Positions 1 through 59,972 of a DNA stretch of 64,000 bases are shown piece after piece (within the stretch, counting starts at the first letter, position 1; each line of letters opens with the position of its first letter). The stretch comes from Cetorhinus maximus. Its lineage: Eukaryota. The position numbers and the translations under genes were made by a program. The stretch is taken from positions 48,360,001 through 48,424,000 of the forward strand of contig NC_135897.1 of NCBI RefSeq assembly GCF_964194155.1. Reading direction: 5' to 3'. Under the pieces are notes generated by a model that searched no databases, was not told the origin of the DNA, and was given only the letters and a program-made list of their open reading frames with translations.

Positions 1-2048
1 AACCAGGGCACAAAACTGGTAATATATTTGTCATCCAATTTTCATTTCCACTGATGGTACGAAAATCAGACAATGTTGATATTAAACAGATGAACTGATT
101 ACAACCTCTGCTAGAATATTAGCCATTCAGTGAAGATGAAAATTTGTCAATTTATCCTACGATCAGTCTTGTTTCTTTGATACTTGAAGTTAAATTAGTT
201 CCAGTAAATTGCAATGTGGTCATTTTAACTTTCGACAATGGCATAAAAGTGGCAGAATTAAATTAGTCCCCATAAATGCTGTCCACTTTTTGTTTCTGTT
301 GGTTATTGCATGTGATAAAAAACAGGCAGCCAATCCAATATTGTAACTTTACCCCTTAAAATTAAATCGATCCCCAGTTCCTTTAATAGTAGTTGTCGCA
401 TTTTGCATTATATATGATTAGAAACTTTGCCTTCAATGATGCAGGATGCTTGTGAAAGACAATTAACAGTATTGTGGTTTTGAATTAAGCAACAAAATGA
501 GTTTTACTTTTTGTTTTTTTCAACATTCAGTAGAGGCACAAGAGCTAAAATGCTCTTCCATTTGCAATAACCTGTTATAAATTATTTTCATTTGGAGAAT
601 TTTTTTGCATAATATTGACAGAATACATTACAATATCTTGTCTTTGCCTCTTCACATTTATTCCTCTCCTCTCCTGCAGGGATATGGGTCCAGAGTGTCT
701 CCTCGAATATTGAAAAGGCACATACAGCAGTAATTGAATGAATTTTCAATGAAGTGTTACACATATAGAGTGTCAGGAATAGGAGCTGAAATCTTAGCAG
801 CAAATATTCCAATATAAGTAGGAACTGAGCAACCTCACTTATATGTCAAATAGTGGACATTATAAATTACTTTTCATTGTTTATACTAATGCACATCATA
901 TATGGCAGGGTTGCGATATCAGTGATTTAGTTTAAGGTCCAAAATAAGACAAGAACAAACGTATTATTTTTTGAGATTATTTTAAAATATTTCTTTAGGC
1001 AGTGAGATATGAAGGTAAGATTGATTACACTATAAATTAGAAAACTTAATAAAACAAAAACAAAACAATATTGAAAGTCACCGTTTAATATGGTTGTACA
1101 GGCTTGTATAAGAAGCCTCCAAGCTGCTTGTAAACAAATACTTTAGCACTGTTGTTATTATTTGAATTAACACATCTACCACAGGATAGCAGTTCCTAAT
1201 ACTACATTCTTAACTGGATAACAAACAAGCATAATCACAGTAAAAGTTGTGCAGGCACAAAATAAATCCACAAAATTCAACTTGCATTTTTGCAGTCAAA
1301 AATCTTGACCTGCTTTTCAACGAGTCTGAATTAAAATGAGCAAAAGTTCAAAAATTAAATAAGTTCTAGTTAAATGTCAAGTTTGCTTTGACAAATCCAA
1401 TTTTGCGATGGTTGTATTGAGAAAAATAAATCCACAAAGAGAGAGATGGCACAAGCTCTCAAAGATTCTTGTGGCCCAACAGATAAGAAAGCTTTGAAAT
1501 AATCTGCTCTATTTTTCTTGGAATTTTTTATCTGTCAGACTTGCACCATGGTATAATTCATAAAATTCAACATAATTCAATTTAACAGATTATAAAGTAA
1601 TTGGTTTAAAATAAAGATTTCATAATTTTCTACTTTACACTGAACATTTTTTCTGTTCCATATGGCTATCAGAGCTTAAAATGACTTGCAATGTAAATGT
1701 AATTAAGTTTGATAACTCAAGAGACTTGTAAACAGCCTTCAGCAATATAATTAAAACTCGATAACTATCACCTGGAGTCAAAGGGTCACAATCCTTATGA
1801 ATGTGGATGAGAACTTGTGTTTCATTTGTTTGCATGCAACAAGTATGCAATGTCATAACGTAACGTGTATTAAAAACATGTTGGAATTACTGCATGCATC
1901 ATCATTGTAATAAAACTATACACAACTCTTTGGGATCTTCTCAATCCAGAAACAAAACAATCTGTTTACCAAACATTTTCATGAGGACAATGTATATCCA
2001 ATGTAACCTTGACACTGGCCCAGCCAACAGATATATCAAAAAATTATA

Positions 2049-2270
2049 AAAGCAAAATACCACGGATGCTGGAAATCTGAAACAAAAACAGAAAATGCTG
2101 GAAAAACTCAGCAGTTCTAGCAGCATCTGTGGAGAGAGAAACAGAGTTAACATTTCAAATCCGTATGACCGCTCTGAAAAACGGTCATACAGACTTGAAA
2201 CGTTAACTCTGTTTCTCTCTTCACAGATTCTGCTAGACCTGCAGAGTTTTTCCAGCATTTTCTGTTTTTG
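2049..2270. mobile_element. Non-autonomous fold-back Penelope-derived element (two inverted pLTR fragments)
   Basis: Inverted arms of ~89 bp (2083-2171 / 2182-2270) resemble the pLTR of the PLE at 5913. A 15-bp TSD tatcaaaaaattata lies at 2034-2048 and 2271-2285. The right arm has a degenerate HHR-like motif (ctgaaaaacggtcatacagacttgaaacgttaact). Confidence 0.85.
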
Positions 2271-3785
2271 TATCAAAAAATTATATTCAATTTCCTTACT
2301 GAAATATTTTGAGTAAGTTTTGCTGTCATATTGAATTATAACCACTGCTCTTTACATAATATAATTAGTCAGGAGTTGCAGCTGGAACATTAGTAAGTAC
2401 TGTAACTGCGGTGCAATGTTGCATGAAACAGTTGGGTGATACCTTGTCTACAATGACAAACAATTACATTACTTTCCCTGGGCCAAGAGAGAACAAGAGG
2501 GCTCTAAGATTCTTTCAACAGTAAGATTTCCCAGTTCATGATGTAATTGATTGCATGCATACAATATTATTTGCTCCAGCACATAAAAACCAAAAGGGTT
2601 TCTACTCAAAAGTGCAAATTGTCTGTGACCATTCTTATGGGATAATTTGGCAGTTGGTATGTTGCCTTTTTTTTAAAATCACAGTCTGTAACAACCCCAT
2701 TATTCACTACTAACCACAAAGTACAGGATTGAAGCCTTGAGAACACTGCCCAGCCACAGCACTGCGTCTACATTCCATAGACAGGTATAACAAAGTTCAT
2801 GCTTCCACCACAGCCATCATCAAATACAAAATATATAAGCAATTCCAATGCCTTAGTAAGTCAGAGACTTTCCAATACAGCCCAGCTAAAATTTCCACTA
2901 TCATTATGGTGCGGGGTGCTGCATTTACCACAACTTCACTATTCAACAAGGTATCCTCAAAAGGCATTTCATACAATTAATTGCTTTAAAGTGCAATGAT
3001 AGTTGTTAGATACTCAAAGTGAGTTGTGACTAGTGCACTGTCTATTTTCAGCATGACATCCTCAGATTTATATTCTATCTTTTGGCATTCTTGCTCAGCA
3101 TACTAGCTCAAATGAACTAATAAGTAATGAATAATAAATCACAAAGTTTTTCAGACGAGTTTGCCAATTAACTGCTCTTCTATTTGTCACACTTGTAGCA
3201 CAATTATTTGCTGACAAAAGAAAACTGAAAGTTGACTTTGGCATTTAGTCTTAGAAATGTTAATGATATAAAACTGACACAGTGCATTAAGTTCCCCACT
3301 AGTCCCATACTTGAATCATCTGAAACAGCAGCATAATGGTTACAATAATCTGCTAAATGCAGGTTCAAATCCCACTATGACAGTTTGCAACAAGACATGA
3401 AAAACATAAAGTCCATTAATATGATCCAAGAATAACTGAATACAACTTTTCTTTCTCCACTGCAATGTTTTAATGTTGACTGTAAAACACTGCTCTCTAC
3501 TTACAGTGGAATTTAGAGAAGGTATCTATGACATAGTTGCTGTGAGATTATTAATTCTTCATGACATACTTGCATTCAATGAGGCATATCTGTTTCACCA
3601 TGTAAACTATCCAACGATGGCCAATGTTTAATGACGTCTCCTACTGATACATTTTCAGGAAGTTAAACCTACTTGACTGTGACCTTTAACAGAAAACAAA
3701 AAGATCAACAGTCCAAACTGCCACTCATCTGTCACACTCCAATCATTAGATTAGCTAGTGGTCTTATCTGGTATAACATCCACCA

Positions 3786-3905: not shown

Positions 3906-5943
3906 TAGTAGTTTTACTTCTTTCGCTTGTTTTCCCTTTTCTTTTTCTGAGCCTCATCTTCACATCTCTAATTTTATCTCTTCTTAATATGTATGTGAAA
4001 GAATATCCTGAAGACTACCTGTCATGTATTGTGACAAACAATGTCCATTCTTCTCACATTGGTAATATTCATAGAATATTGGATACCTCAGAATCCTGCT
4101 TCATTGAACTCTATCTAAAACCTTTGGCATAAAGCAGCTCATTGAATCTCATACTTGCAGTCATCAGGCGCTTACAAGTCATAACTGTCTTCTTGTACTT
4201 CATGTTCAGAAGGGATATTGCATCTATCCAATAATTTTCCTTTCCTTAAGATCATTATTACAAGGATAATGGTTGGTGCCACATGAATCCTCAATTGTCA
4301 CAGAGAGGCAAGATTTGAATCAATATAGTTTTCCACATAGTACCTCTCAACCAAACAATAATATAAATGCAGCTTCTCCTGGATCCACTGATTTCACAGA
4401 CACTTGAAGATTCAAATGGGTCTATCCCTGGACAGCAAGTTAACACCACAAAGAATGTAAGTATGAACTATCTCACAGGAAGATTAGGACAGAGTAATTT
4501 CTTTAAATCAGACAAAAAAGAAAATTTTCCCCAAATATTCTCAAGATGTTGTGCTCCTTCTGTTGTAATTCAGGTCTTATGCCTTATTCTTTAAGTGTGA
4601 CTGTTTCCCTGCCAAAGTTTTGGTGCCAATCTCAGGCACCGATTTTGTGTTGTCTAGCACCATGCTTGTACAATATTCAGCATTATTTCCGCTCAGTGCT
4701 GTCCCTGTTAGGAAGCTTTAAAGAAATCACTGAGTATTCAACCTCTGTAAAATGTTTCATGTTGCTGACTGACTTGTAACAGAGCTTAGGAGCTTTCCTT
4801 GAACTCTTGAGCTATGCATCAGCTCACACAATATGCTGATTGTTGTACTTGGTTATTAGATCCCAATCAATTCTTTCGTTAATACTGCCATTTATGGATT
4901 CACTTAATGGGACTGTTTTATGATAGGGTAATTTGAAATTTGTGTGTGAATTGATATAATTTTCCTAATAGGAAGCATGTGCCAAAAAGGATGTTCTAAA
5001 ATATATGTCATACGACCTGTCATTCAATGAACAAAAAACATCTCAATATAGCAACCAGAATTAGTTATTCTATTTCACCTGCACACCCAGCAGTCGTTGT
5101 TTCTGCCAGCAGTGACTAAACATGAGCCATGCATGTTTAATGTTACTACATTAAGTTATTTATTTTAGATTGATTTTATGTTTTAATGCCAAAAATTGCA
5201 AGACCATCACTGATAATAACAACCATTGGTAGCAACGTTGATTTGATGAAACAATGTGGAAATTTTACACTGATGAGTGAATGCATGGCACATTCCAAAA
5301 GTCTCGAGTCCTGTTCTGATTTCCCTGGCTGAAGGAATCACTAATTGAAGACTTCTGTAATTCCGCTGGGTGGCACATACTGAATGATTGAGATGCTGAA
5401 CTGAACAGTATGATTCAGTCAGCCCATATCGCAGAATCTTTCACACACTCCCAGCAGGCCTACTGTTATATACCTACTGCTTTGATATATTGCTCCATTA
5501 TTTAACAGTCTGAGAATAATTTAAACTTTGTTTATTAATTTGTGGCCCAAATATATTGAAAAAACTGACACACACACAAACACATCTACCTTACACATTG
5601 ATTACTGTGCACTGTGTCACATAAACTATTGCCTTCCACAAGGCTGAGTTTGGTGATGCCACTTCCCAAAATGTATTTGCACTTTGAAGTCAAAGCCAGC
5701 AACGTCCAGCCAACCACCTGCAGCAAGGATGGAGAAAGGAAAAACAAGTCCTGTCTTTCAGAAATATGTGCAATTGCTATTAAAACATATGAAAGAAAGC
5801 TTTTTGATGTGGGAGATGGGCAGAGCATTTTGAAAGATGAAATGTGTTAATAGTATGCTAGTACCAGTACAGATGGTGCAGAAATTTTGGATGCCAAAAT
5901 GTCAGAAGTCTATTTATATTTCTCCCTTGTTGAAACTATGCTG

Positions 5944-5984
5944 CAGTTCTGCCGAAGGGCCATGGAGGCTCGAAACGTTAACTG
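5944..5984 (+). ncRNA. Minimal type I hammerhead ribozyme motif in 5' pLTR (A6C core variant)
   Basis: cagtt-CTGCCGA-a-gggcc-atgga-ggctc-GAAAC-GTT-aactg. Stem I is cagtt/aactg, stem II is gggcc/ggctc, and stem III is the loopless ACGT palindrome. HHRs in PLE pLTRs are established. Confidence 0.75.
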
Positions 5985-6132
5985 ATTTCTTCTCCGCCGA
6001 TGCTGCCAGACTTGCTGAGTTTTTCCAGGTAATTCTGTTTTTGTTTTGTTTTGGATTTCCAGCATCCGCAGTAGCTTTTAGCTTTTTGTTTTTATCTTTG
6101 TGTTTGATTGACTGCCACCTCTCTTCAAAAAA

Positions 6133-8886
6133 ATGCCCTCTTGGAAGAAGTATGGCTCTGTCCTCCGACAGGATTTCCGACTGTCTCTTCTGCCCTGCTC
6201 ACCTTCATTGCTTTCCATTTCTCTCCTGGTGTTTGACAAGGTGTTTACTAAAACCCGCTTTCACAGCCATATCTCCTATCTCAGTGACTGTCTCCGTCTC
6301 CGACTCACCCCACGTGGATTTCAACTGAAATTCCATCCCTCTTGTTTCGAACCCACCCAGGATTACAGGTATCTCCGGGACATAAAACGTTTCTCGGACT
6401 GCTGTTCCTGTTGCATTCTGAGATCCACACTCAGTGCCATGCGCCGCCATATGAACACACTCGACCTCTCCCTCCAGCAGCACCGCCGCACCCTTTTTCA
6501 AAGCTGCCCGTGCCCCCAGTTTCATTTTATTCTTCACCTCATCCGTCGCCTCAACAAGAAACTTTTTCTCTTTCTCTCAAGTGCTAAGGAACGCAAGCTC
6601 CAACAACTCATCGACTCCAACACCCATCTGGGACCCTCCACCCCTGCTTGTCCCTCCGTCCTCACCCCATCTTCCAATCCCAGCCCCAGCCGCGTATTCA
6701 CTATACCCCCTGACCTTCCCCTCCCCGATGCTGAACGTTCAGTGCTCAACAAAGGACTTAGTTTCATACCCTTACGCCCTCATCTCAATGAATTTCGGGC
6801 TCGGCATGATGCTGAACTCTTCTTCCGCCGTCTCCGTCTCCGTGCTCACTTCTTTGGGCAGGAGTCCTCTCCCCGTTCAACGGATCCTTTTACCCACCTC
6901 CAATATTCTCCCTCCACTTGGACCCCTCCCTCTGGATTCTTACCTTCTCTTGATCTTTTCATTGAGAACTGTCGGCGTGACATTAGCCGTCTCAATTTCT
7001 CTGCTCCTCTCACCCATTCTAATCTGTCTCTCTCTGAACTCACTGCACTCCGTTCTCTCAGGTCCAACCCCAACATTGTCATCAAACCCGCTGACAAGGG
7101 TGGTACTGTTGTTGTCTGGTGCATTGACCTCTACCTCGCGGAGGCTGAGCGTCAACTCGCAGACGTTTCCTCCTACCTCTCCCTGGACCATGACCCCACC
7201 ACAGAACATCAAGCCATTGTTTCCAGGACTGTCACTGACCTCATCTCCTCTGGAGATCTTCCTCCCACAGCTTCCAACTTGATAGTCGCCCAACCTCGGA
7301 CGGCCCGCTTCTACCTCCTACCCAAAATCCACAAACAGAACTGTCCTGGCAGACCGATCGTGTCAGCCTGTTCCTGCCCCACGGAACTCATTTCTCGTTA
7401 TCTTGACTCCCTTCTCTCTCCCCTTGTCCAGTCCCTTCCCACCTACATCCGTGATTCCTCTGACACCTTACGTCACATCAACAATTTCCAGTTCCCTGGC
7501 CCCAACCGCTTCCTCTTCACCATGGATGTCCAATCCCTCTACACCTCCATCCCCCACCAGGATGGTCTGAGGGCCCTTAGCTTCTTCCTTGAACAGAGGC
7601 CCCAACAATCCCCATCCACCACTACTCTCCTCCGTCTGGCTGAACTTGTTCTCACACTGAACAATTTCTCCTTTAACTCCTCTCACTTCCTTCAAATAAA
7701 AGGTGTGGCTATGGGTACCCACATGGGCCCCAGCTATGCCTGTCTCTTTATGGGGTATGTGGAACATTCCTTGTTCCAGTCCTACTCCGGCCCCCTCCCA
7801 CAACTCTTTCTCCGGTACATCGATGATTACTTCGGTGCTGCTTCATGCTCTCGTCGGGACCTGGAAAAATTTATTAATTTTGCTTCCAATCTCCACCCCT
7901 CCATCATCTTCACATGGTCCATCTCTGACACTTCTCTTCCCTTCCTTGACCTCTCTGCCTCAATTTCTGATGATAGACTGTCCACCAATATCCATTACAA
8001 GCCTACCGACTCCCACAGCTACCTCGACTACAGCTCCTCACACCCCGCTTCCTGTAAAGACTCCATCCCATTCTCTCAGTTCCTTCGCCTCCGTCGCATC
8101 TGTTCTGATGACGCTACCTTCAAAAACAGCTCCTCTGACATGTCCTCCTTCTTCCTTAACCGAGGTTTTCCATCCACGGTCGTTGACAGGGCCCTCAACC
8201 GTGTCCGGCCCATATCCCGCGCATCCTCCCTCACGCCTTCTCCTCCTTCCCAGAAACATGATAGGGTCCCCCTTGTCCTCACTTATCACCCCACCAGCCT
8301 CCGCATTCAAAGGATCATCCTCCGCCATTTCCGCCAACTCCAGCATGATGCCACCACCAAACACATCTTCCCTTCACCCCCCTTGACGGCATTCCGTAGG
8401 GATCGTTCCCTCCGGGACACCCTGGTCCACTCCTCCATCACCCCCTACTCCTCAACCCCCACTTATGGCACCTCCCCATGCCCACGCAGAAGATGCAACA
8501 CCTGCCCCTTCACTTCCTCTCTCCTCACCGTCCAAGGGCCCAAACACTCCTTTCAAGTGAAGCAGCATTTCACTTGCATTTCCCCTAACTTAGTCTACTG
8601 CATTCGTTGCTCCCAATGCGGTCTCCTCTACATTGGAGAGACCAAACGCAAACTGGGCGACCGTTTTGCGGAACACCTGCGGTCTGTCCGCAAGAAAGAC
8701 CCAAACCTCCCTGTCGCTTGCCATTTTAACACTCCACCCTGTTCTCTTGCCAACGTGTCTGTCCTTGGCTTGCTGCATTGTTCCAGTGAAGCCCAACGCA
8801 AACTGGAGGAACAGCACCTCATCTTCCGACTAGGCACTTTACAGCCCTCTGGGCTGAATATTGAATTCAACAACTTCAGATCTTAA
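6133..8886 (+). CDS. PLE reverse transcriptase + GIY-YIG endonuclease (917 aa, uninterrupted)
   Basis: Motifs IKPADKGG, YLLPKIHK, PGRPIVS, MDVQSLYT, GVAMG and RYIDD (RT). A Cys-rich linker CPRRRCNTC is characteristic of the Neptune group. LVYCIRCSQCGLLYIGETKRKLGDRFAEH is the GIY-YIG domain. Confidence 0.96.
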   Translation: MPSWKKYGSVLRQDFRLSLLPCSPSLLSISLLVFDKVFTKTRFHSHISYLSDCLRLRLTPRGFQLKFHPSCFEPTQDYRYLRDIKRFSDCCSCCILRSTLSAMRRHMNTLDLSLQQHRRTLFQSCPCPQFHFILHLIRRLNKKLFLFLSSAKERKLQQLIDSNTHLGPSTPACPSVLTPSSNPSPSRVFTIPPDLPLPDAERSVLNKGLSFIPLRPHLNEFRARHDAELFFRRLRLRAHFFGQESSPRSTDPFTHLQYSPSTWTPPSGFLPSLDLFIENCRRDISRLNFSAPLTHSNLSLSELTALRSLRSNPNIVIKPADKGGTVVVWCIDLYLAEAERQLADVSSYLSLDHDPTTEHQAIVSRTVTDLISSGDLPPTASNLIVAQPRTARFYLLPKIHKQNCPGRPIVSACSCPTELISRYLDSLLSPLVQSLPTYIRDSSDTLRHINNFQFPGPNRFLFTMDVQSLYTSIPHQDGLRALSFFLEQRPQQSPSTTTLLRLAELVLTLNNFSFNSSHFLQIKGVAMGTHMGPSYACLFMGYVEHSLFQSYSGPLPQLFLRYIDDYFGAASCSRRDLEKFINFASNLHPSIIFTWSISDTSLPFLDLSASISDDRLSTNIHYKPTDSHSYLDYSSSHPASCKDSIPFSQFLRLRRICSDDATFKNSSSDMSSFFLNRGFPSTVVDRALNRVRPISRASSLTPSPPSQKHDRVPLVLTYHPTSLRIQRIILRHFRQLQHDATTKHIFPSPPLTAFRRDRSLRDTLVHSSITPYSSTPTYGTSPCPRRRCNTCPFTSSLLTVQGPKHSFQVKQHFTCISPNLVYCIRCSQCGLLYIGETKRKLGDRFAEHLRSVRKKDPNLPVACHFNTPPCSLANVSVLGLLHCSSEAQRKLEEQHLIFRLGTLQPSGLNIEFNNFRS

Positions 8887-9248
8887 ACTCCCCCTCCCCC
8901 CATCCCCACCCCATTTCTTTTCCCCCCCCACCCACTTTTTTTTCAATAATTTATATAGATTCTTCTTTCCCCACCTATTTCCATTATTTTTAAATCTAAA
9001 ACTAAAACCTTTAGTCTTTCCACCCCACCCCCACTAGAGCTGTACTTTGAATATCCTGTTTTCCATTCTTAATTAGCACTTTTCTCAGACAAAGACCACC
9101 ACCTTCAACACCTCTTTGACCCTTTTGTCTGTGACATCTTTGGATTATCTGCTCACACCACACCCTCAATGTGTCTCTTCACCCACCCCCCCCCACCCCC
9201 CCACCACCTTAAACCAATTTATATTTCTCCCTTGTTGAAACTATGCTG

Positions 9249-9289
9249 CAGTTCTGCCGAAGGGCCATGGAGGCTCGAAACGTTAACTG
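9249..9289 (+). ncRNA. Minimal type I hammerhead ribozyme motif in 3' pLTR
   Basis: Identical to 5944-5984. Confidence 0.75.
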
Positions 9290-9446
9290 ATTTCTTCTCT
9301 GCTGATGCTGCCAGACTTGCTGAGTTTTTCCAGGTAATTCTGTTTTTGTTTTGTTTTGGATTTCCAGCATCCGCAGTAGCTTTTTGTTTTTATCTTTGTG
9401 TCAGAAGTCTAAGTGTTTTAACGAGCGGCTGTCTTTCGGTCCAGAC

Positions 9447-10442
9447 AATGTTAAACCCCCAGTGCACTGCTGCAGGAATATACCAATGTTAAATCCAGTG
9501 TACCGTTGGAGGAATATACCAATATTAAACCCAGTGTACTACTGGGGCATTATGCCCAATGTTAAACCCAGTGCACTATTGGAGGAATATACCAATGTTA
9601 AACACAGTGCACTGCTGGAGGAATATACCAATGTTAAACCCAATGCACTGCTGGAGGAATATATCAATGTTAAACCCAGTGCACTGCTGGAGGAATATAT
9701 GAATGTTAAACCTAATGCATTATGGAGGAATATACCTAAAGTTAGACCTAGCACACTACTGGAGGAATATACCAATGTTAAGCCCAGTGCACTGCTGAAG
9801 GAATATACCACTGTTAAACTCAGTGCACTACTGGAGGAATATACCCAATGTTAAACCCAGTGCACTACTGGAGGAATATACCCAATGTTAAACCCAGTGC
9901 ACTGCTGGAGGAATATACCAATGTTAAACCCAGTGCACTGCTGGAGGAATATATCAATGTTAAACCTAAAGCACTATGGAGGAATATACCCAAAGTTAAA
10001 CCTAGCACACGACTGGAGGAATATACCAATGTTAAACCCAGTGCACTGCTGCTTCATTATACCCAATGTTAAGATAAAAGCAAAATACTGCAGATGCTGG
10101 AAATCTGAAATAAAAACAGAAAATGCTGCAAATGCTGGAAAAACTCAGCAGGTCTGACATCACCCTGGAGAGAGAAACACAGCTAATATTTTGAGTCCGT
10201 ATGACTCTTCTTTAGCTCTGAAGAAGTCATACGGACTCAAAACTTTAGCTCTATTTCTCTCTCCACAAAAGCTGTCAGACCTGCAGAGTTTTTCCTGCAT
10301 TTTCTGTTTTTATACCCAATGTTAAACCCAGTGCACTGCTGGAGGAATATACCCAATGTTAAATCCAGTGCACTACTGCAGCATTATACCCAAGGTTAAA
10401 CCCAGTGCACTGCTGGAGGAATATACCAATGTTAAACCCAGT
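9447..10442. repeat. 36-37 bp minisatellite (~21 units), interrupted by a PLE-derived insertion
   Basis: Head-to-tail unit AATGTTAAACCCAGTGCACTGCTGGAGGAATATACC with internal palindrome CAGTGCACTG and no spacers. Confidence 0.95.
10073..10309. mobile_element. Fold-back Penelope-derived element inserted in the minisatellite
   Basis: Inverted pLTR arms of ~80 bp centred near 10215. Flanking repeat ttatacccaatgttaa at 10057-10072 and 10310-10325 is TSD-like, though it is also array sequence. Degenerate HHR motif ctgaagaagtcatacggactcaaaac. Confidence 0.85.
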
Positions 10443-10448
10443 GATGCA

Positions 10449-12678
10449 GAATGTACTGTGGGTGGGGGACTTCAATGTCCATCACCAAGAGTGACTCGGT
10501 AGCACCACTAATGACCGAGCTGGCCGTGTCCTAAAGGACATAGTTGCTAGACTGGGTCTGTGGCAGGTGGTGAGGAAACCAACAAGAGGGAAAATCATAC
10601 TTGACCTCATCCTCACCATCCTGACTGCTGCAGATGCATCTGTCCATGACAGTATCAGTAGGAGTGACCACCTCACAGTCATTGTGGAGATGAAGTCCCA
10701 CCTTCACATTGAGGATATCCTTCAGTGTGTTGGGTGGCATTACCACCGTGCTAAATGGGGTAAATTTTGAACAGATCTAGCAACTCAAGACTAGGCATCC
10801 ATGAGGCACTATGGGCCATCAGCAGCAGAATTGTACTCGAACAATATCTGTAATCTTATGGTCCGACATATTCCCCACTCTACCATTACCATCAAACCAG
10901 GGGACCAACACTGGTTCAATTAAGAATGCAGGAGGGCATGCCAGGAGCAGCACCAGGCATACCTAAAAATGAGGTGTCAACCTGGTGAAGCTATAACACA
11001 GGACTACTTGCATGTCAAACAGCATAAGCAGCAAGTGATAGGCAGAGCTAAGTGATCCCACAACCAAAGGATCAGATCTAAGCTCTGCAGTCTTGCCACT
11101 TCCAGTCATGAATGGTGGTGGACAATTAAATAACTCACTGGAGGAGGAGGTTCCACAAATATTCCCATCCACAATGATGGGGGAGCTCAGCACATCAGTG
11201 CATAAGATAAGACTGAAGCATTTGCTACAATCTTCAGCCATTAGTGCCAAGTGCACGATCCATCTTGGCCTCCTCCGGAGGTCCCCAGCATCACAGATGC
11301 CAGTCTTCAGCCAATTCAATTCATTCCACGTGATAGCAAGAAACGACTGACGGCACTGGATAGTGGAAAGGCTATTGGGCCTGACAATATTCCAGCAATA
11401 GTACTGAAGACTTGTGCTCCAGAACTTGCCACACCCCTAACCTGACCTCATTTCAGCCTTGGTTCAAACATGGGACAAAAGATCTGAACTCCTGAGGTGA
11501 GGCGAGAGTGACTGCCCTTGACATCAAGGCCACATTTGACAGAGCATGGCATCAAGGAGCCCTAACAAAACTTGAGTCAATGGGAATCGGGGAAAACTCT
11601 GTTGGTTGGGGGTCATACCTAGCACAAAGGAAGATGGTTGTGGTTGTTGGAGGTCAGTCATCTCAGCTCCAGGACATCACTGCAGGAGTTCCTCAGGATA
11701 GTGTCCTCGACCCAACCGTCTTCAGCTGCTTCATCAATGACCTTTCATCCATCATACGAGTGGGGATTTTCGCTGATTACTGCACAACGTTCAGCACCAT
11801 TCGCGACTCCTCAAATACTGAAGCAGTCCATTTCCAAATCCAGCAAGACCTGGACAATATCCAGGCTTGGACTGACAAGTGGCAAGTAACATTCGCGCCA
11901 CACAAGTGTCAGGCAAAGGCCATCTCCAACAAGAGCGAATCTAACCATCGTCCCTTGACGTTTAATGGCATGACCATCACTGAATCCCCCACTATCAACA
12001 TCCTGGGGGTTACCAGTGATCAGAAACTGAACTGGACTAGCCATATAAATATCGTGGCTACAAGAGCAGGTCAGAGGCTAGGAATCCTGTGATGAGTAAT
12101 ACACCTCCTGACTCCCCAAAGCCCTTCCACCATCTACAAGGCACAAGTCAAGAGTGTGATGGAATACTTCCCATTTGCCTGGATGAGTGCAGCTCCCACA
12201 ACACTCAAGAAGCTTGACACCATCCAGGACAAAGTAGCCCGATTGATTGGCATTGGCACTACATTCACTAACGTTCAATCCCTCACCACTGATGCACAGT
12301 AGCAGCAGTGTGTACCATCTACAAGATGCATTGAAATGAATTCACGAAAGCTCCTTTGGCAGCACTTTCCAAACCCATGACCACTACCATCTAGAAGGGC
12401 AAGGGCAGCAGACAGATGGGGACACCTCCACCTGGAAGTTCCCCTCCAAGTCACTCACCATCCTGACTTGGAAATATATCACCTTTCCTTCACAGTCGCT
12501 GGGTCAAAACTGTGGAACTCCCTTCCTAACAGCACTGTGGGTGTACCTACACCACATGGACTGCAGCGGTTCAAGAAGGAAGCTCGCACCACCTTCTCAA
12601 GGACAACTGGGAAGGGCAATAAATGCTGGCCCAGCCAGCGAATGAATGGCCCACATCCCGTGAATGAATAAATAAAAA
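10449..12678 (+). mobile_element. Decayed APE-RT LINE (CR1/Jockey group, clade uncertain), internally deleted
   Basis: Endonuclease-like VGDFNVHH, GPDNIP, ALDIKATFDRAWH, GVPQDSVL and FADY, with multiple stops and frameshifts. The 3' tail cccacatcccgtgaatgaataaa is shared with other copies. Confidence 0.9.
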
Positions 12679-13219: not shown

Positions 13220-15517
13220 TATAAAGGCAAAATACTGCAGATGCTGGAAATCTGAAACAAAAACAAAAAGTGCTGGAAATATTCAGCGGCTTGACAGCAT
13301 CTACGGAGAGAAAGACAGAGTTAACGTTTCGAGTCCATATGGCTCTTCTTCGGAACTAAAGAGAAGTAAAGATATGGTAAAATATATACTGCGTAAGGGG
13401 GGTGGGACAGGTGAAGTTGGATAGAAGGCCAGTGATAGGTGGAGGCAAAGGAGAGATTGCAAAAGATGTCATAAACAAAAGATCGAAGGGGTGTTAATGG
13501 TGGTGATACTGGCTAAAGGAGGTGCTAATGGTGACATAAAGAGTAGAAAGCATAATAAGCAAGTGACAGATGGCCCTAGTGGGGGTTGCGGGAGGGGACG
13601 GTGGTAGGAAAAAAGATCGACATAGGCTAAAAGGTGGGGGTAAAGCAATGAATAAAAATGGAAATAAATTTTTTTTAAAAATAATAAAAATAGGTGGAAA
13701 ATATATACAAGTTAAAAAATAAATATTTGAAAAACGGGTGAGGATGGAGGAGAGTTGGTCTGAAGTTGTGGAACTCAATGTTAAGTCCGGAAGGCTGTAA
13801 AGTGCCTAATCGGAAGATGAGGTACTGTTCCTCCAGTTTGTGTTGAGCTTCACTGGAACATTGCAGCAGGCCAAGGACGGACATATGGGCATGAGAGCAG
13901 GATGGTGTGCTGAAGTGGCAAGCGACAGGAAAGTCTGGGTCATGTTGCAAACAGGCCGAAGATGTTCTGCAAATCAGTCACCCAGTCTGAATTTGGTCTC
14001 TCCAATATAGGGGAGACTGCATTGGGAGCAGCGAATGCAGTAGACCAAATTGAGGGAAGTGCAAGTGACTGCTTCAGTTGAAAGGAGTGTTTGGGCCCTT
14101 GGACAGTGAGGAGGGGGGAAGTAAAGGGGCAGGTGTTGCAATTGTATGGGAAGGTGCCATGGGAGGGGGTTGAGGTGATGGAGGAGTGGACCAGGGTGTC
14201 CCAGAGGGAACGGTCCCTACGGAATTCCGATTTGGGGGGGGGGGGAGGTGGTGAAGGGAAGATGTGTTTGGTGGTGGCATCATGCTGGAAATGGCGGAGG
14301 ATGATCCTTTGAATGCGGAGGCTGGTGGGGTGAAAAGTGAGGACAAGGGGGACCCTATCATGGTTCTGAGAGGGAGAGGAAAGTATGAGGGCAGAGGCGT
14401 GGGAGTTGGGTTGGACACGGTTGAGTGACCTGTCACCAACCGTGGTTGGGAAACCTCGGTTAAGGAAGACGTCAGACATGTTTTGGAAAGCAGCATCATC
14501 AGAACAGATACGATGGAGGCAAAGGAACTGAGAGAATGGGATGGAGTCTTTACACGAAGCAGGGTGTGAGGAGTTGTAATCGAGGTAGGTGTGGGAGTTG
14601 GTGGGCTTGTAATGAATATTGGTGGACAGTCTATCATGAGAAATTGAGACAGAGAGGTCAAGGAAGGGAAGGGAAGCGTCAGAGATGGACCATGTGAAAG
14701 TGGTGGAGGGGTGGAAATTGGAAGCAAAATTAATACATTTTTCCAGGTCCAGACGAGAGCATGAAGCAGCACTGAAACAGTCATCGATGTACCGGAGAAA
14801 AAGTTGTGGGAGGGGGCCTGAGTAGAACTGGAACAAGGAATGTTCCACATATCCCATAAAGAGACAGGCATAACTGGGGCCCATGCGGGTACCCATAGCC
14901 ACACTTTTTATTTGGAGGAAGTGAGACGAGTTTAAGGAGAAATTGTTCAGTGAGAGAACAAGTTCAGCCAGACAGAGGAGTGGTGGTGGATGGGGTTTGT
15001 TTGGGCCTCTGTTCAAGGAAGAAGCTAAGGGCCCTCAGACCATCCTGGTGGGGGATGGAGGTGTAGAGGGATTGGATGTCCATGGTGAAGAGGAGGCAGT
15101 TGCGACCAGGGAACTGGAAATTTTTGATATGATGTAGGGCATCAGAGGAATCATGGATGTAGGTGGGAAGAGACTGGACAAGGGGAGAGAGAAGGGAGTC
15201 AAGATGGGAAGAAATGAGTTCTGCTTTCTACTCTTAATGTCACCATTAGCACCTCCTTTAACCCGTGCCACCACCATCAACGCGCCTTCGATCTTTTGTT
15301 TATGACATCTTTTGCAATCTCTCCTTTGCCTCCACCCATCACTGGCCTTTTATCCAGCTTCACCTGTGCCACCCCCCTTAAATAGTATATATTTCACCAT
15401 ATTTTTACTTCCCTTTAGTTCTGAAGTAGAGTCATTCGGACTCAAAAGTTAACTCTGTCTTTCTCTCCACAGACGCTGTCAGACCTGCTGAGTTTTTTCA
15501 GCACGTTTTGTTTTTGG
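13220..15517 (-). mobile_element. 5'-truncated, frameshifted Neptune-type PLE with inverted pLTR
   Basis: ORF pieces 13940-15016 and 13675-13950 closely match the 917-aa protein. Segment ~15222-15516 is an inverted copy of ~13258-13552. A 12-bp TSD tacagactttat lies at 13208-13219 and 15518-15529. HHR-like motifs at 13319-13357 (-) and 15417-15454 (+). Confidence 0.93.
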
Positions 15518-15900: not shown

Positions 15901-16554
15901 GGCCAGAATTTTGCCATTGGCGAGCAGGGGGGCGGGGCCCACGGGACATGTAAAATGACGCAGGATGACATTGGGCGGAACCCCCGACGTCATCCCGCCC
16001 CATTTAAATTTTCAGGAAGGCGGGGGCGCAGCAAAATCAGCTGCGGGCCCACCGACCTGTCAATGGCCAATTGAGGCCATTGACAGGATCATTTAACCAA
16101 TTAAAGGACCTGCCCGTCCAATCTTAAGGTTGGCGGGCAGGCCAGGAGCTCCGGCATAAAATAGAGAAAACATGAAACCTCATCCAGCAGCGGGATGAGG
16201 TTTCATGCAGGGATTTAAAAATGTTAATAAAGTTATTCTGTAAATTATGAATATGTCCCAACTCTTGTAATATTTTTCAAACTCCAGGTGATCTCCCTGA
16301 GGCTGCACTTAGCCTCAGGGAGATGTGCGCTCTTTCGTGCGCATGCGCGAAAGAGCACACTTTCGCTATTAGGGAATCCCCTCCGCCCGCACAGGGAGTG
16401 CATAGCGCTTCCCGCTGGGCGTCATGCTGGGTGGGCCTTAATTGGCCTGCCTACGTAAAATGGCGGCGGGGCCCGCTTCGCTGGCAGGGATCGGCTCCCC
16501 GCCCGCTGGAGATTGGGTCAGGCCCACCTGCCCAACAGGCAGAAAATTCTGCCC
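15901..16554 (+). mobile_element. PIF/Harbinger-type MITE, family A
   Basis: TIR ggccagaatttt...aaaattctgccc, flanks atg/acg (3-bp TSD with one CpG-type change), and the internal hairpins shared by the family. Confidence 0.88.
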
Positions 16555-30196: not shown

Positions 30197-30746
30197 ACAG
30201 GTCGGAATCTGTTTAGTTGTGCAAATCAGAGTCCTACGCATGTTGTCCTATTTCTCCCAAAGTTGAAAGACCTAACCGATTCCTCCATGCCTTACTAATA
30301 TCTTCTGACTATAAGCTGGTCCATTCTCGTCTAATGCCACCTGCCCCACCACCCCCTCCCCCACCCCCACCCCCACCCCAAAAAGACTAACTAGCCAACC
30401 AAGTGAACAGATTACAGTTACTGCAGCTTGCTTGTAAAATGTAAATAAGGCCTGAACCTGAAAGTGGGTCAGGCCTCCTGACTGCTGCATTGGGCAATTG
30501 CTAGAGTTGCGTTGTAGAATATTGCTGCCATTTGTCACCCAAACCAAAAGTTCTTTCCCAGAACCCTGATCTTAGCCAGACCAATGATGAGAGCAGTGTA
30601 ATCAGCCTTATATCATTAATTTAAAAAGTAGAAAACAGTGAATTCCAACCTCTGAGCACTATCTTATGACTGCTGGCTGGAAAGTGCATGCAGATGTACT
30701 TCCTAGCACAATAAAGACACACTCAGAACAATCACAAGAATGTTTA

Positions 30747-31288
30747 ACAAAAACAGAATTACCTGGAAAAACTCAGCAGGTCTGGCAGCATTGGCGGAGA
30801 AGAAAAGAGTTGACGTTTTGAGTCCTCATGACCCTTCAGCAGAACTGAGTAAAGTTAGGAGAGGCGTGAAATATAAGCTGGTTTAAGGTGTGGGGGTGGG
30901 GGTGGGGGGAGAGAAGTTGAGGGGGGGGTGGTTGTAGGGACAAGCAAGCAGTGATAGGAACAGATAATCAAAAGATGTCACAGACAAAAGGAACAAAGGG
31001 GTGTTGAAGGTGGTGATATTATCTAAGAAAATGTGCTAATTAAGAATGGATGGCAGGACACTCAAGGTACAGCTCTAGTGGGGTGGAAAGACTAACAGGG
31101 TATTACAGTTATAGATTTAAAAATAATGGAAATAGTTGGGAAAAGAAAAATCTATATAAATTATTGGAAAAAACAAAAGGGAGGGGGAAGAAACAGAAAG
31201 GGGGTGGGGATGGGGGAGGGAGTTTAAGATCTAAAGTTGTTGAATTCAATATTCAGCCCGGAAGGCTGTAAAGTGCCTAGTAAAATGC
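30747..31288 (-). mobile_element. 5'-truncated PLE (ORF end + pLTR)
   Basis: Encodes LGTLQPSGLNIEFNNFRS*. A 12-bp TSD caagaatgttta lies at 30735-30746 and 31289-31300. HHR-like motif at 30808-30846. Confidence 0.88.
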
Positions 31289-36033: not shown

Positions 36034-37935
36034 CACAGAATCACAGTGCAGGAGGCCCTTTGGCCCATCGAGTCTGCACTGACACGTGAGAAACACCTGA
36101 CCTACCTACCTAATCCCATTTACCAGCACTTGGCCCATAGCCTTGAATGTTATGACGTGCCAAGTGCTCATCCAGGTACTTTTTAAAGGATGTGAGGCAA
36201 CCCGCCTGCACCACCCTCCCAGGCAGTGCATTCCAGACTGTCACCACCCTCTGGGTAAAAAAGATTTTCCTCACATCCCCCCTAAACCTCCTGCCCCTCA
36301 CCTTGAACTTATGCCCCTTGTGACTGACCCTTCAAATAAGGGGAACAGCTGCTCCCTATCCACCCTGTCCATGCCCCTCATAATCTTGTACACCTCGATC
36401 AGGTCTTCTCTGCTCCAACGAAAACAACCCAAGTCTATCCAACCTCTCTTCATAACTTAAATGTTTCATCCTAGGCAACATCCTGGTGAATCTCCTCTGC
36501 ACCCCATCCGGTGCAATCACATCCTTCCTATAATGTGGCGACCAGAACTGCACACAGTACTCCAGCTGTGGCCTCACCAAGGTTCTATACAACTCCAATA
36601 TGACCTCCCTACTTTTGTAATCTATGTCTTGACTGATAAAGGCAAGTGTCCCATATGCTTTTTTCACCACCCCACTAACATGCCCCTCCGCCTTCAGAGA
36701 TCGATGGACACACATGCCAAGGTCCCTTTGTTCCTCAGAACTTCCTAGTGCCATGCCATTCATTGAATACTTCCTTGTCAAGTTACTCCTTCCAAAGTGT
36801 ATCACCTCACACTTTTCAGGGTTAAATTCCATCTGCCACTTATCTGTCCATTTGACCATCCCGTCTATATCTTCCTGTAGCCCAAGACACTCAACCTTCC
36901 TGTTAACCACCCGGCCAATCTTTGTGCCATCCGCAAACTTACTAATCCTACCCCCACAAAGTCATCTATGTCGGTTATATAAATGAAGAATAATAGGGGA
37001 CCGAGCACAGAACCCTGTGGTACGCCACTGGACACTGGCTTCCAGTCACTAAAGCATCCTTCTGTCATCACCCTCTGCCTCCTACAACTAAGCCAATTTT
37101 GAGTCCACCTTATCAAATTACCCTGTATCCCATGTGCCTTTGCCTTCTTTATAAGTCTCCCATGTGGGACCTTGTCAAAGGCTTTGCTCAAATCCATATA
37201 AACTACATCAATTGCACTACCCTCATCTACACACCTGGTCACCTCCTCAAAAAATTCAATCAAATTTGTTAGGCATGACCTCCCTCTGACAAAGCCATGC
37301 TGACTATCCCTGATCAAACCTTGCCTCTCCAAGTGGAGGTAGATACTCTCCTTCAGAAATTTCTCCAATAGTTTCCCTACCACTGTCGTGAGACTCACTG
37401 GCCTGTAGTTCCCTGGCTTATCTCTACAACCCTTCTTAAATAGCGGAACCACATTAGCTGTTCTCCAGTTCTCTGGCACCTCCCCAGTGGCCAGAGAGGA
37501 ATTAAAAATTTGAGTCAGAGCCCCTGCAATCTCCTCCCTTGCCTCTCTCAGCAGTCTGGGACACAAATCATACGGACCCGGAGATTTGTCCACTTTTAAG
37601 CCTGCCAACACCTCCAATACCTTGTCGCTCCCTATATCAATTTGCTTAAGAACCTCGCAGTCTCTCTCCCCAAGTTCGATACCTTCGTCCTCATTCTCTT
37701 GGGTGAAGACGGACGTGAAGTATTCATTCAACGCTCTAGCGATGTCCTCTGGCTCCACCCATAGATTTCCCCCTTGGTCCCTTTTGGGCCCTTTCCCTGG
37801 TTATCCTCTTCCCATTGATATACTTATAGAATATCTTGGGATTTTCCCTACTTTTACCAGCCAGAGCTTTCTCATATCCCCTCCTTGCTCTCCTAATTGC
37901 TTTCTTAAGCTCCACCCTGCACTGTCTGTACTCCA
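36034..37935 (-). mobile_element. CR1 LINE, 5'-truncated and frameshifted
   Basis: KSPGP, PGNYRPVSLT, QHGFVRGRSCLTNL, DLSKAFDKVPH, GVPQGSVLGP and RPQLEYCVQFW. Confidence 0.95.
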
Positions 37936-40401: not shown

Positions 40402-41814
40402 AGAGAATTTTCAATCGAAAAGAACATCAGATGCAAAAATCATTAACTTTTGGAAAAGATGGATTATGTTAAAATAAAAAGAATTTGCTTACATGGACTT
40501 CAACTCTGCTGAATTTTCAAGACCACCATGAAAAATTCTGCTTCAGTCACGGAAACCAGCAAAGGACACATAAACAGTGAACTCTCTATTTTTTACCTTT
40601 TAGGAGTGAATTTTAATTTGACCAAAAAGCAACCTCCTACTGTATAACTTGTTATTTTTGCATTTGCATATGTGTGTGTTGCGAAGATCAGGATGTCGGT
40701 TTACCTTTTTAATTATTTTTATATCTTTACCTGAGTGGGTTTTTAGTTCAATAACCCCTTAGTGCTTTAAACTCAAGGACACTTGTCAGGCTGGTTTCTC
40801 TGCAATCAGCACCTAAACGGTTAAGCACAGACATTGAATTAATACCTTCATCTTTATAAATTCACAAATAAAACCCTGTTATGGTCAGACCTGGAGTGGT
40901 AGAATAGGGAATCATTTCACCCCTCTTCCTCCTGTTCTATATCCTATATTTTTTTATATAAGGCTCCAGATCCCTGTAAAGGGTGGTGCACTGTTTCAGA
41001 TGCCTGATGACTATAATTTGCTGCTCGAAAGCCCACGAAAAGTCTGTGGACAGTTAGAAGCGTAATGAATGGAAAGTCCAATACTTTACCACTGCTGCTA
41101 TTTAAACTATGTTAATTCATGTTTCTCACTTCAAAATTATAGAATGCCATCTTTTGATTTGTCATGAATGAAATGCCTGCAAGCAATCAATGTGCAGTAT
41201 TATTACAATTGAGAAAGGCAGGAGGGGAGGCTTTACGCACAGCAATTAGTTCAAATTTCCAATCACTCAAAGACATACATCATCATAGAACCATAGCAGT
41301 TTACAACACACAAAAAGGTTATTCGTCTAATCATGTGGGTGCCGGATCTTTGCAAAGGCATTTCAAAACTAATTTAAGTGTCCTGCTTTTTCCGTCTAGC
41401 CATTAATCTTCCTCTGGTTCAAATATTTATCCAGTTTTCCTTTCAAGATGCTATAGTCTCTGCCTTAATAATTGTCTTTTGCAAAATAATCTATGATCCA
41501 TCTATCCTCTGCATGAAAACAATTTCCTAACTTTTCTTTTCACTCTCCTGGTGATAACTTTAAATTGATGACATTGTATCACAGCTTCCCCAACCAGAGG
41601 GAATAGTCCTTTCCTATTCATTGTATCAAAACTCTTCCTAATTTACAAAACCACTATTAAACCTTCTTTTAGCCTCATCCACTCCATTGGAATAATTCAG
41701 GAGTTGGGGTGTTCATCCTGAAGCCTAGTGGAAACTGGGTGGGTGGGGGGAGACGGGGCAACAGTTAAAATACCCTGGGTTATTTACCAAGGAACTATTT
41801 CTGATATTAACAAA

Positions 41815-42025
41815 AACAAAAATACCTGGAAAAACTCAGCAGGTCTGGCAGCATCTGCGGAGAGGAACACAGTTAACGTTTCGAGTCCGAATGACCCTTC
41901 AACAGAACTAAGTAAAAATAGAAGAGAGATGAAATCTAAGCTGGTTATAAACCAGATCTGCTGAGTTTTTCCAGGTATTTTTGTTTTTGTTTTGGATTTC
42001 TAGCATCCGCAGTTTTTTGCTTTTA
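41815..42025. mobile_element. Inverted-pLTR Penelope-derived mini-element
   Basis: A minus-oriented pLTR with HHR motif (41871-41909) is followed by a plus-oriented pLTR tail. Flanking repeat tctgatattaacaaa at 41800-41814 and 42026-42040. Confidence 0.85.
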
Positions 42026-42832
42026 TCTGATATTAACAAATGTTTCTTGACAGGCTTTAAACCACTCACCCAATATTGGTTCAAACACACATATGCTGAT
42101 GGGTGTCCAGTGACATGGTTGACCCCTGGCCAATTTTAACTTTGGTGTAAGCAGGGAAACCATCGCTGCTTTTCCACCAGGTGAAGACCAGTGTATCAGG
42201 AACCAATTAGCGGTTTGTTAATAGGCCCTGGCAGTTAAAATTCACATGGCTTCATACTGTGACAGGCTAACTGAGATCGGTGGTTTTGTGCCAGAAACCC
42301 GCTGGCTATTAAAAACCTCTTGCCCCGTCCTATGCGGTATCAGAGTCTTTTCTCAGAAACAGTCGCCCATCGCTGACATCAGCATACTGGATCTATATTC
42401 TCTTTATCTATGACTTTGAGATACTCAAAACTGTTCAGAACTCTCTCTCACTGTGGTCTAGTTAATATTTGGTATACATTTATAATTACTCCTTCATTCA
42501 TGTACATTGTTCTCCTATTTGTATGTACCAAAATACAGTTGTTTTCTCTACCTGCACCTATATATCCAGGGAATGATGTATTTCAATCCTTAGGTCTTTC
42601 TGTTCATCCATACCCTTCAGTGTCTTTTCACTAAATGTAAGTATACTCCATGTTTTATTTCCAACTCTAACATGGAGTTCTTCACACTTATCCATATTAA
42701 ATTGCCTCTGCCATTTATAAGCTCATTCCACCAATTTTTCCTATGTTACCATGAAGTCTCTTACAATCCTCAAACGTTTGCACAACTTCTAATCTTTGCA
42801 TCATCATAAAATTTCAATGTCCTATATCCTAT

Positions 42833-58762: not shown

Positions 58763-59757
58763 TTAACTGAGTGTAACTGTTGAACAGGCGGTGCTTATTG
58801 CTGAGTTCGTCAGTGACTGTGAAGTTGGTGGTGCACTCTTGTCATTTGTATCAGTTTTGCCCTTAACTAATTCCTCTGTGTTCCTTTCTGGCTTCAATAA
58901 GATAATATAACATTTAGGAACAAAAAGACAAGCCAGCAAGCCAAAGCTGGATGCCAAAATGGCAAACATTTCAACAGCTACCATATATTTACCCCGAGTG
59001 CTTAAATAGGCTGGGATAAAAGAAATCCAAACAATAAAAAAGACAAGCAGGGCAAAGGTCATAAACTTGGCTTCATTAAAGTTATCAGGTAATTTCCGAG
59101 CAATGAAAGCAAAAATAAAGCAAATAGCAGCCAGTAATGCATCATATCCTAACACACAACACAGGAACACTACAGAGCCTTCATTGCATTCCATAATTAT
59201 TTTGATATTTTGAGACTGTGTATTCTTGATAGGGTAAGGAGGTAGAATTAGTAACCAAGCTGTACAGAGACAAGCATGGCATAAGACAAGGATCAATGCA
59301 ATAATTCTTTGCTGAAAAGGGCCTAAAAGTTTACTTTCTGTGCCTTCAGGTGATTTTGCTTTGGTTGCTTTGGCTTTGAGCATCAGATTAACAGCCTTTG
59401 ATAACATACATGAAAGGCAGGTAGCAAAGCTAACAGCAAGAAGAACCTGTCGTGTCATACAAGACCATGCTACTGGCAAGCCAACAAAGACGATTGCACT
59501 GAGAAAGCATATAACTAGTGAAAATAACAGCATAAAGCTCAGTCCACGATCATTAGATTTGACAAGGGCAGTATTCTTTCGAACCATGTAAACCACAGCA
59601 ATGGCTGCAGCAGTGCAGGCCCCAAATATTGATAGTGCTATTAATGTCATTCCCAAGGCATCATTATAACCAAGGTATTCAATCACTTTATGTACACATT
59701 CATCTCTGTTTTCATTGGACCAGTAATCTTCAGGGCACTGAATACATTCCCTCGAAT
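58763..59757 (-). CDS. Terminal exon (end of Cys-rich domain + 7TM + C-tail) of a class C GPCR, V2R/OlfC receptor most like family C (Vmn2r1/OlfCc1)
   Basis: Acceptor tttgacag and a phase-1 exon, open for 330 codons: CIQCPEDYWSN, VKSNDRGLSF, KNTQSQNIKIIMECNEGS, ARKLPDNFNEAKFMTF, SFIPAYLST, AVEMFAILASSFGLL, PKCYIILLKPERN. No upstream exons were found in the window. Confidence 0.93.
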
Positions 59758-59972
59758 CTGTCAAATAAACATCAAAATATTGTTATGCAGTTGATATATA
59801 CATATGTACTATTTATTTTCACATTTAGACCTGCAATATACTGTTAATTCTACTTAAATATCTCAAATGGCTATTACTTTTGGTAAATATACACAATCAA
59901 CCCATCACTGTTGTAGTGTTAACGGTTGATGTGCAGTGCTGCTTTTCTCTTAACTTTTAATCCAATTAAATG

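What the first reader, a model, noticed from the sequence alone, without database searches (positions are those of the whole stretch)
2034..2285. Recurrent fold-back, ribozyme-bearing mini-retroelements made only of PLE pLTR sequence
Seen: three insertions (2049-2270, 10073-10309, 41815-42025) of 210-240 bp. Each consists of two inverted pLTR pieces with a 15-16 bp flanking duplication, and in two the fold-back centre lies at the HHR motif. Established: PLEs often insert with an inverted pLTR. Inference: these are either extreme truncation products whose junction is set near the ribozyme, or a non-coding hairpin family mobilised in trans. Transcripts would form 40-90 bp dsRNA stems.
Basis: partly seen in the sequence, partly recalled or inferred. 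Interest (0 to 1): 0.7.

Follow-up and report, generated by a model that had tools for sequence, protein, structure and literature searches.

The report
Penelope fold-back stubs marking RNA start
These three short mirror-image insertions are real but are the smallest members of a known layout of Penelope-type jumping genes, not a new self-copying family; their ends pile up at one spot, likely the start of the element's RNA, which suggests the element is copied from both cut DNA strands at once.

Summary
All three fold-backs and their 15-16 bp duplications are confirmed. They are head-to-head pairs of 3' ends of a Neptune-like Penelope element (an intact copy lies at 5913-9398). A 1.6 Mb genome sample held 22 such short units (about 55,000 genome-wide), in a size series up to 5.9 kb, all 23 paired junctions different. 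None of about 90 fold-backs has the 36-nt tail on both arms. Arm 5' ends pile up 3-4 nt before the hammerhead core, 13-25-fold, in fold-backs and lone arms alike; the cleavage site shows no peak (434 versus 12 junctions). One junction recurs 695 times, but on three subfamily backgrounds and in both polarities, so it is re-made, not inherited. Best reading: both nicked strands prime reverse transcription at two fixed sites, the copies run off the uncleaved RNA's 5' end (TATA/Inr-like, untested) and are joined. The layout is published (Arkhipova 2013; Cervera 2014; Craig 2021); the fixed stop was not found in my seven searches. This scan noted the same thing in at least 13 other genomes.

The parts
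2034..2048 (+). E1 left target-site duplication (15 bp)
2049..2170 (-). E1 tail arm: pLTR 3' end from +134 back to +9 (numbering: hammerhead C3 = 0); includes the 36-nt tail, lacks the CUGA box
2171..2270 (+). E1 tail-less arm from -3 to about +100; hammerhead motif degenerate (G8>A, G10.1>C)
2271..2285 (+). E1 right target-site duplication
10057..10325 (.). E2 with its 16-bp duplications: tail arm on - (10073-10212, reaches about +3), tail-less arm on + (10210-10309, starts about -8), about 3 nt microhomology; inside a 36-37 bp minisatellite
41800..42040 (.). E3 with its 15-bp duplications: tail-less arm on - (41815-41947, reaches -41), 5 extra bases, tail arm on + (41952-42025, starts +57). 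Neither arm contains the other
5913..9398 (+). Intact Penelope-like element of the same family group, direct pLTRs (5913-6087 starting at -37; 9217-9393), 13-bp duplication at 5900-5912 and 9399-9411
6112..8886 (+). 924-codon open frame: RT (PF00078), C-x4-C-x2-C linker at residue 790, GIY-YIG (PF01541, below curated cut-off)
5945..5983 (+). Minimal type I hammerhead-like motif of the 5' pLTR; A at 5945 (-4) is the inferred RNA start; predicted cut after 5979
   Evidence: start site inferred
13220..15517 (.).
30740..31281 (-). Lone 5'-truncated, tail-less arm with a 12-bp duplication

Best explanation
The three units are head-to-head pairs of Penelope pLTR 3' ends between target-site duplications, likely made anew at each insertion when both nicked target strands prime reverse transcription of the element's RNA. 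SHOWN: 12-16 bp duplications; one arm ends at the tail (+133), the other at about +97 or earlier; a size series from 120 bp to 5.9 kb; 5' ends pile up at -4/-3 in fold-backs and lone arms. INFERRED: the GIY-YIG nuclease makes a cut staggered by about 14 nt; one strand primes at +133 and the other at +97; when priming falls in the transcript's first pLTR both cDNAs run off the uncleaved RNA's 5' end at about -4, likely a Pol II start; the two cDNA ends are joined through 0-4 nt of homology (the AGCT palindrome in one subfamily) or a few added bases, and each serves as template for the other's second strand. Earlier stops (E1 +9, E3 +57) are ordinary truncation; long arms come from priming in the 3' pLTR. 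The products are dead on arrival.
For: One-tail rule: 24 of 26 sampled and window fold-backs have one tail arm, 2 old ones none scored, 0 two; 65 of 65 search-derived ones have one (35 of them found by centre-only patterns), while 46 of 105 unpaired arms carry a tail (P 2e-5 on the 23 sampled alone). Two RT start sites that bound the tail, extension of both strands and use of uncleaved RNA were shown in vitro for a Poseidon PLE (PMC11167929). In 13 of 26 the tail-less arm reaches further 5' than the tail arm, so neither arm contains the other. Pile-up: 18 of 53 arms at risk stop at -6..0 (9 paired, 9 unpaired), 14.6 times the upstream rate; repeated in two genome-wide listings, 18 versus 7 of 100 and 41 versus 6 of 100 (hand tallies; 54, 73). 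434 junctions at -6..0 versus 12 near the cleavage site, none flush with it. TATAWWW starts at -31..-28 from that A in 31 of 32 matches over 37 long copies, and YYANWYY fits 25 of 37. Same junction on TT, AT and CC backgrounds, arms concordant in 43 of 50, central base 7 T: 7 A: 1 G relative to the tail; arm differences recur 676 times in the same and 649 in the opposite polarity.
Against: No RNA 5' end was seen; only contigs were available. The -4 site also reads as a 3' splice acceptor (pyrimidine tract, YAG). The -6..0 window was chosen after seeing the sample. The E1-type junction has the tail on the same side in 9 of 10 copies. Same-molecule origin is not shown: arms share 22 rare alleles against 2.5 for random pairs but 12 for the best foreign partner, and own arms are closer than the nearest foreign arm in only 17 of 72. 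A few inverted arms are tiny and stop far from +97 (11 nt in L053; +42, +43, +62), which fits snap-back better. The in vitro data are for another clade.
Confidence: 0.62

Rival explanations
1. Self-priming or snap-back: one cDNA (or an antisense RNA, as Arkhipova et al. 2013 proposed) folds on itself at a local palindrome and is copied back, giving the inverted arm.
For: Proposed in PMC3846280. The motif is rich in short inverted repeats; 21 of 50 listed AGCT-subfamily junctions are the perfect CAG-AGCT-CTG. Tiny inverted arms exist (L053, L083, L130). Arms share subfamily and some rare alleles.
Against: In 13 of 26 neither arm contains the other (E3 is one). Lone arms stop at the same place. 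The perfect GTTAAC palindrome at the cleavage site is never the centre (0 of 12). The AGTT subfamilies lack the palindrome and still stop there.
Confidence: 0.15
2. Two-strand priming as in the best reading, but the fixed stop is not a transcription start: it is a 3' splice site or another processing point or RT barrier at the motif's 5' edge.
For: Pyrimidine tract plus YAG in 31 of 37 long copies; in D. virilis Penelope an intron ends at the 5' side of helix I (PMC4209133).
Against: No shared upstream exon precedes the arms; most ends keep the G or AG (-3, -4) that splicing would remove; a structure barrier should stop RT on its 3' side; TATA-like spacing fits a start.
Confidence: 0.13
3. A non-coding hairpin family: some fold-backs are transcribed and re-inserted whole by the PLE protein.
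For: Identical junctions at hundreds of loci; 9 of 10 same polarity for the E1 junction; strand-wise A>G slightly above T>C, 64 versus 49 and 117 versus 97, not significant; non-autonomous PLE derivatives exist (PMC8557442).
Against: 23 of 23 sampled junctions differ; recurrent junctions sit on three or more backgrounds and both polarities; no inherited arm differences; same ends and duplications in lone arms and multi-kb inserts; a run-off hairpin lacks the upstream promoter-like motif.
Confidence: 0.07
4. The junction is set by hammerhead cleavage: templates are ribozyme-cut RNAs.
For: One sampled unit (L087) is centred at +32/+33, and 7 of 76 arms stop at +25..+35.
Against: That rate (0.9% per nt) equals the rate at +1..+24; 12 versus 434 junctions, none flush with the cut; arms retain the sequence upstream of the cut; cleavage was dispensable in vitro (PMC11167929).
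Confidence: 0.03

Closest known systems
EN+ Penelope-like insertions with inverted pLTR, one-sided tail and TSD (Pen2a_Av and Pen2 of Adineta vaga, PMC3846280; general scheme in Craig et al. 2021, PMC8557442)
   Same: Head-to-head inverted 5'-truncated copy, 30-40 bp tail at one end, flanking duplication, TATA and Inr-like motifs in the pLTR, foreign sequence caught between solo pLTRs.
   Different: No ORF between the arms; about 55,000 copies; 12-16 bp duplications rather than 8-10; a sharp shared stop at -4/-3; strict one-tail rule counted here.
Paired minimal hammerheads on opposite strands, 100-700 bp apart, in Schistosoma mansoni (Cervera and De la Pena 2014, PMC4209133)
   Same: Two PLE min-HHR motifs close together on opposite strands, read as truncated PLEs.
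   Different: One sentence there; junctions, duplications and tails not described in the parts I read.
PAc (Poseidon of Anolis carolinensis) in vitro, Frangieh et al. 2024, PMC11167929
   Same: Two RT start sites bounding the tail; both strands cut and extended; uncleaved RNA used; predicted dimer.
   Different: Other clade; no strand preference of start sites was seen in vitro, whereas here the two arms never share the tail start; fold-backs not analysed.
Non-LTR retrozymes (bioRxiv 10.64898/2026.07.22.740005)
   Same: Non-coding, pLTR-derived, type I HHR motif.
   Different: Retrozymes are head-to-tail tandem repeats with consecutive HHRs; these are single head-to-head pairs with often broken motifs.
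L1 twin priming (recalled, not from a call)
   Same: Both target strands prime; 5' inversion inside a TSD.
   Different: In L1 the two pieces cover different parts of the RNA; here the same 100 nt is copied twice.

Membership tests
EN+ Penelope-like element (parent) | Single ORF with RT and C-terminal GIY-YIG | tested here: met
   924-codon frame, PF00078 E 5e-7, PF01541 E 5e-4 (below cut-off); 327 relatives with the same domains
EN+ Penelope-like element (parent) | pLTRs with minimal type I HHR | tested here: met
   Direct pLTRs; stems I and II 93% paired in 31 copies, one compensatory pair in 3 copies, weak against shuffles; A6 is substituted in several subfamilies; no Rfam hit
Neptune clade | Cys-rich linker between RT and EN | tested here: met
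   C-x4-C-x2-C at residue 790; feature named in PMC3846280 and PMC8557442
Neptune clade | Placement in an RT tree with named clades | not tested
   No reference set was at hand; nearest named relatives are Chiloscyllium punctatum proteins, 65-68%
PLE inverted-pLTR insertion | Inverted 5'-truncated copy adjoining the 5' end | tested here: met
PLE inverted-pLTR insertion | 30-40 bp tail at one end only | tested here: met
PLE inverted-pLTR insertion | Target-site duplication | tested here: met
   20 of 26 against 0 of 650
Self-propagating non-autonomous family (SINE- or MITE-like) | Copies descend from a master: shared junction with linked mutations and fixed polarity | tested here: not met
   tested on 90 loci, not genome-wide
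Non-LTR retrozyme | Head-to-tail tandem units with consecutive complete HHRs | tested here: not met
   Head-to-head; motifs broken in E1 and E2; definition
Active hammerhead ribozyme | Self-cleavage | not testable with these tools
   Needs an assay; core changes argue against it in E1 and E2

The most novel reading that the evidence does not exclude
These stubs are a fossil record of the whole PLE integration reaction: one dimeric RNP copies a single uncleaved RNA twice, from the two tail-bounding sites on opposite target strands, to the capped 5' end, and the two cDNAs then prime each other's second strand. That one scheme would explain the inverted pLTR, the one-sided tail and the TSD across EN+ PLEs.
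Probability: 0.35. Interest if true: 0.7.

Novelty: new member of a known kind. Interest (0 to 1): 0.4.

Why it matters
How PLEs make inverted pLTRs, the tail and the second strand is called unresolved in PMC8557442 and PMC11167929. Tens of thousands of minimal inserts give sharp predictions (one tail per unit, stop at -4, 14-nt stagger, no use of the ribozyme cut) that the existing in vitro assay and a CAGE library can test. Practically, repeat pipelines could mis-file these hairpins as MITEs, SINEs or miRNA precursors (weak Rfam miRNA hits). As an object the thing is ordinary PLE debris.

Tried and rejected
Rfam: no hammerhead match, only sub-threshold miRNA hairpin hits. RNA evidence: only Logan contigs, RNA status guessed; they show family sequence but no starts, strand or these loci's junctions; no small-RNA or editing data. 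ADAR scar: no significant strand bias (64 versus 49, P 0.19) and no outlier among 90 loci (largest 6 versus 1). Cap-derived extra G: 7 of 19 ends at -4..-6 are preceded by G and 5 of 5 single-base inserts are G/C; too weak, and confounded by a native C. Same-molecule test inconclusive. The arm-reach estimate was inflated by inverted arms and replaced. Four 'two-tail' flags were alignment over-run and vanished in the strict test. Sequence look-up in earlier findings was empty. Paper searches for shark PLE insertions and PLE twin priming gave nothing relevant.

Full report
Observation. The three units, their lengths and their 15-16 bp flanking duplications are as stated. Each is a head-to-head pair of 3' ends of a Penelope-like element; an intact relative with RT, a Cys linker and GIY-YIG lies at 5913-9398 with a 13-bp duplication. 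The host looks like a cartilaginous fish: 4.0 Gb, nearest named proteins from Chiloscyllium. I number positions from hammerhead C3 = 0; the predicted cut is after +30, the two 3' end points are about +97 and +133. E1 joins a tail arm reaching +9 to a tail-less arm starting at -3; E2 about +3 and -8; E3 +57 and -41. The window also holds a 2.3-kb unit of the same build and a lone arm with a duplication.

Sample. I took 160 evenly spaced 10-kb stretches from 15 large contigs (1.6 Mb) and found about 155 pLTR ends with a profile that gave no hit at E<0.5 on reversed DNA. 23 pairs were joined automatically, 22 under 330 bp, which extrapolates to about 55,000 (34,000-83,000) in the genome. Longer fold-backs of 0.5, 0.7, 3.0 and 5.9 kb were also present. 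All 23 junctions differ. Duplications scored in 20 of 26 (with the three window units), 19 of them 12-16 bp, against 0 of 650 cross-pairs; they are 68% AT against 56% for the sample.

One-tail rule. 24 of 26 have exactly one tail arm, two old ones score none, none has two; 65 of 65 further loci from searches have one (30 were found with E1 as query, including E1 itself, and are biased; 35 by centre-only patterns). Unpaired arms carry the tail in 46 of 105, so random pairing would give about half. The tail-less arm reaches further 5' in 13, the tail arm in 6, equal in 7; in those 13 no single cDNA could have templated both arms.

Fixed stop. Of 93 arms at least 88% identical to a reference (the rest were dropped as too decayed to map), 18 of 53 at risk end at -6..0, 9 paired and 9 unpaired, 14.6 times the rate further upstream. 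That window was chosen after looking, so I checked two genome-wide listings by hand: 18 ends in -1..-6 against 7 in -7..-44 among the first 100 of 12,144 matches, and 41 in 0..-6 against 6 among the first 100 of 3,116, 22 of the 41 at -3 or -4; ratios 13 and 25. The cleavage site shows no peak in the sample, and matched 26-base patterns find 434 junctions at the motif's 5' edge but 12 near the cut, none flush. The A at -4 sits in YYANWYY in 25 of 37 long copies with TATAWWW at -31..-28; these copies are related, so this is one observation, not 37. It also reads as a splice acceptor, but no upstream exon is seen and most ends keep the G or AG.

Family or not. One junction, GAAC-N-GTTC, occurs at 695 loci; of the 50 listed, 29 are TT/TT, 8 AT/AT, 6 CC/CC and 7 differ by one base. 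Relative to the tail the central base is 7 T, 7 A, 1 G in 15 readable loci (two left out). In the AGCT subfamily 21 of 50 listed junctions are the perfect palindrome. The E1-type junction occurs 10 times exactly, on three diagnostic backgrounds, 9 in one polarity and 1 in the other; that skew counts against my reading, though tail-less arms tend to run longer anyway. Over 72 loci, arm differences recur equally in both polarities (676 versus 649) and there is no editing signature. Recurrence is thus what a hard stop plus short-homology joining gives. A small hairpin lineage among the perfect-junction copies is not excluded, since only 90 loci were compared.

Ribozyme. Stems I and II hold in 93% of cells over 31 long copies with weak covariation; several subfamilies change A6. 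E1 and E2 carry further core changes, and the fold-back would bury the motif. Nothing here shows cleavage.

Mechanism. Most likely: staggered cut, priming on both strands at the two tail-bounding sites, run-off at the 5' end of uncleaved RNA, joining of the two cDNA ends, mutual fill-in. The anatomy is shown; each step is inferred. It agrees with in vitro results for a Poseidon element (PMC11167929) and differs from the self-priming proposal of PMC3846280, which may still explain the few tiny inverted arms. Whether one or two RNA molecules are used is open.

Literature seen. PMC11167929 parts 1-2 of 4; PMC4209133 parts 1-2 of 4; PMC3846280 parts 1-4 of 5; passages of PMC8557442 and PMC2377424; part 1 of 5 and passages of bioRxiv 10.64898/2026.07.22.740005. 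No supplements were read; Fig. S2 of PMC11167929, which maps genomic ends, may bear on the stop. Seven searches found no account of the fixed stop or a counted one-tail rule; the library lacks most subscription papers and Repbase or Dfam notes. L1 twin priming and the Inr and TATA consensus are recalled. Earlier notes of this scan report the same pattern in at least 13 genomes; my reading was recorded before I saw them.

Verdict. Real and not chance; a known layout at its smallest size; not a self-propagating family on this evidence; of moderate interest as a testable record of PLE integration.

Noticed in passing
L185:443-882; L075:2064-2456: Fold-backs with about 200-250 bp of unrelated sequence between the two arms, inside one duplication (9 and 12 bp); in L185 both arms stop near -4. 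Looks like template jumping onto other sequence, as noted for A. vaga solo pLTRs.
   Followed up: partly
L053:3114-3270; L094:5918-7627: Inverted micro-arms of 11 and 34 nt next to the duplication, not starting at +97; best cases for snap-back.
   Followed up: partly
L066:1115-7004: 5.9-kb insertion: full-length element with a 0.5-kb partial tandem plus a 2.1-kb inverted arm, 13-bp duplication.
   Followed up: partly
window 5913-5945: The intact element's 5' pLTR starts at -37, just enough to keep the TATA-like motif upstream of the inferred start.
   Followed up: no
pLTR core: Large, young subfamilies have CUGUUGA, CUGCUGA or CUGCCGA in place of CUGAUGA, changing the conserved A6, yet kept transposing; cleavage may be dispensable.
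   Followed up: no
window 9458-10443: 36-37 bp minisatellite beside the intact PLE and holding E2.
   Followed up: no
window 58763-59782, - strand: Last exon of a class C GPCR (PF00003, E 1e-74), probably a V2R/OlfC-type or taste receptor (label recalled).
   Followed up: no
window 61157-62396, - strand; repeats at 15977, 34274, 39762, 54866, 55705: Broken DDE_Tnp_4 transposase (PIF/Harbinger type, recalled) and a separate dispersed GC-rich repeat family with short hairpins.
   Followed up: no
window 11496-12092, 36356-37800: Broken LINE reverse transcriptase fragments.
   Followed up: no
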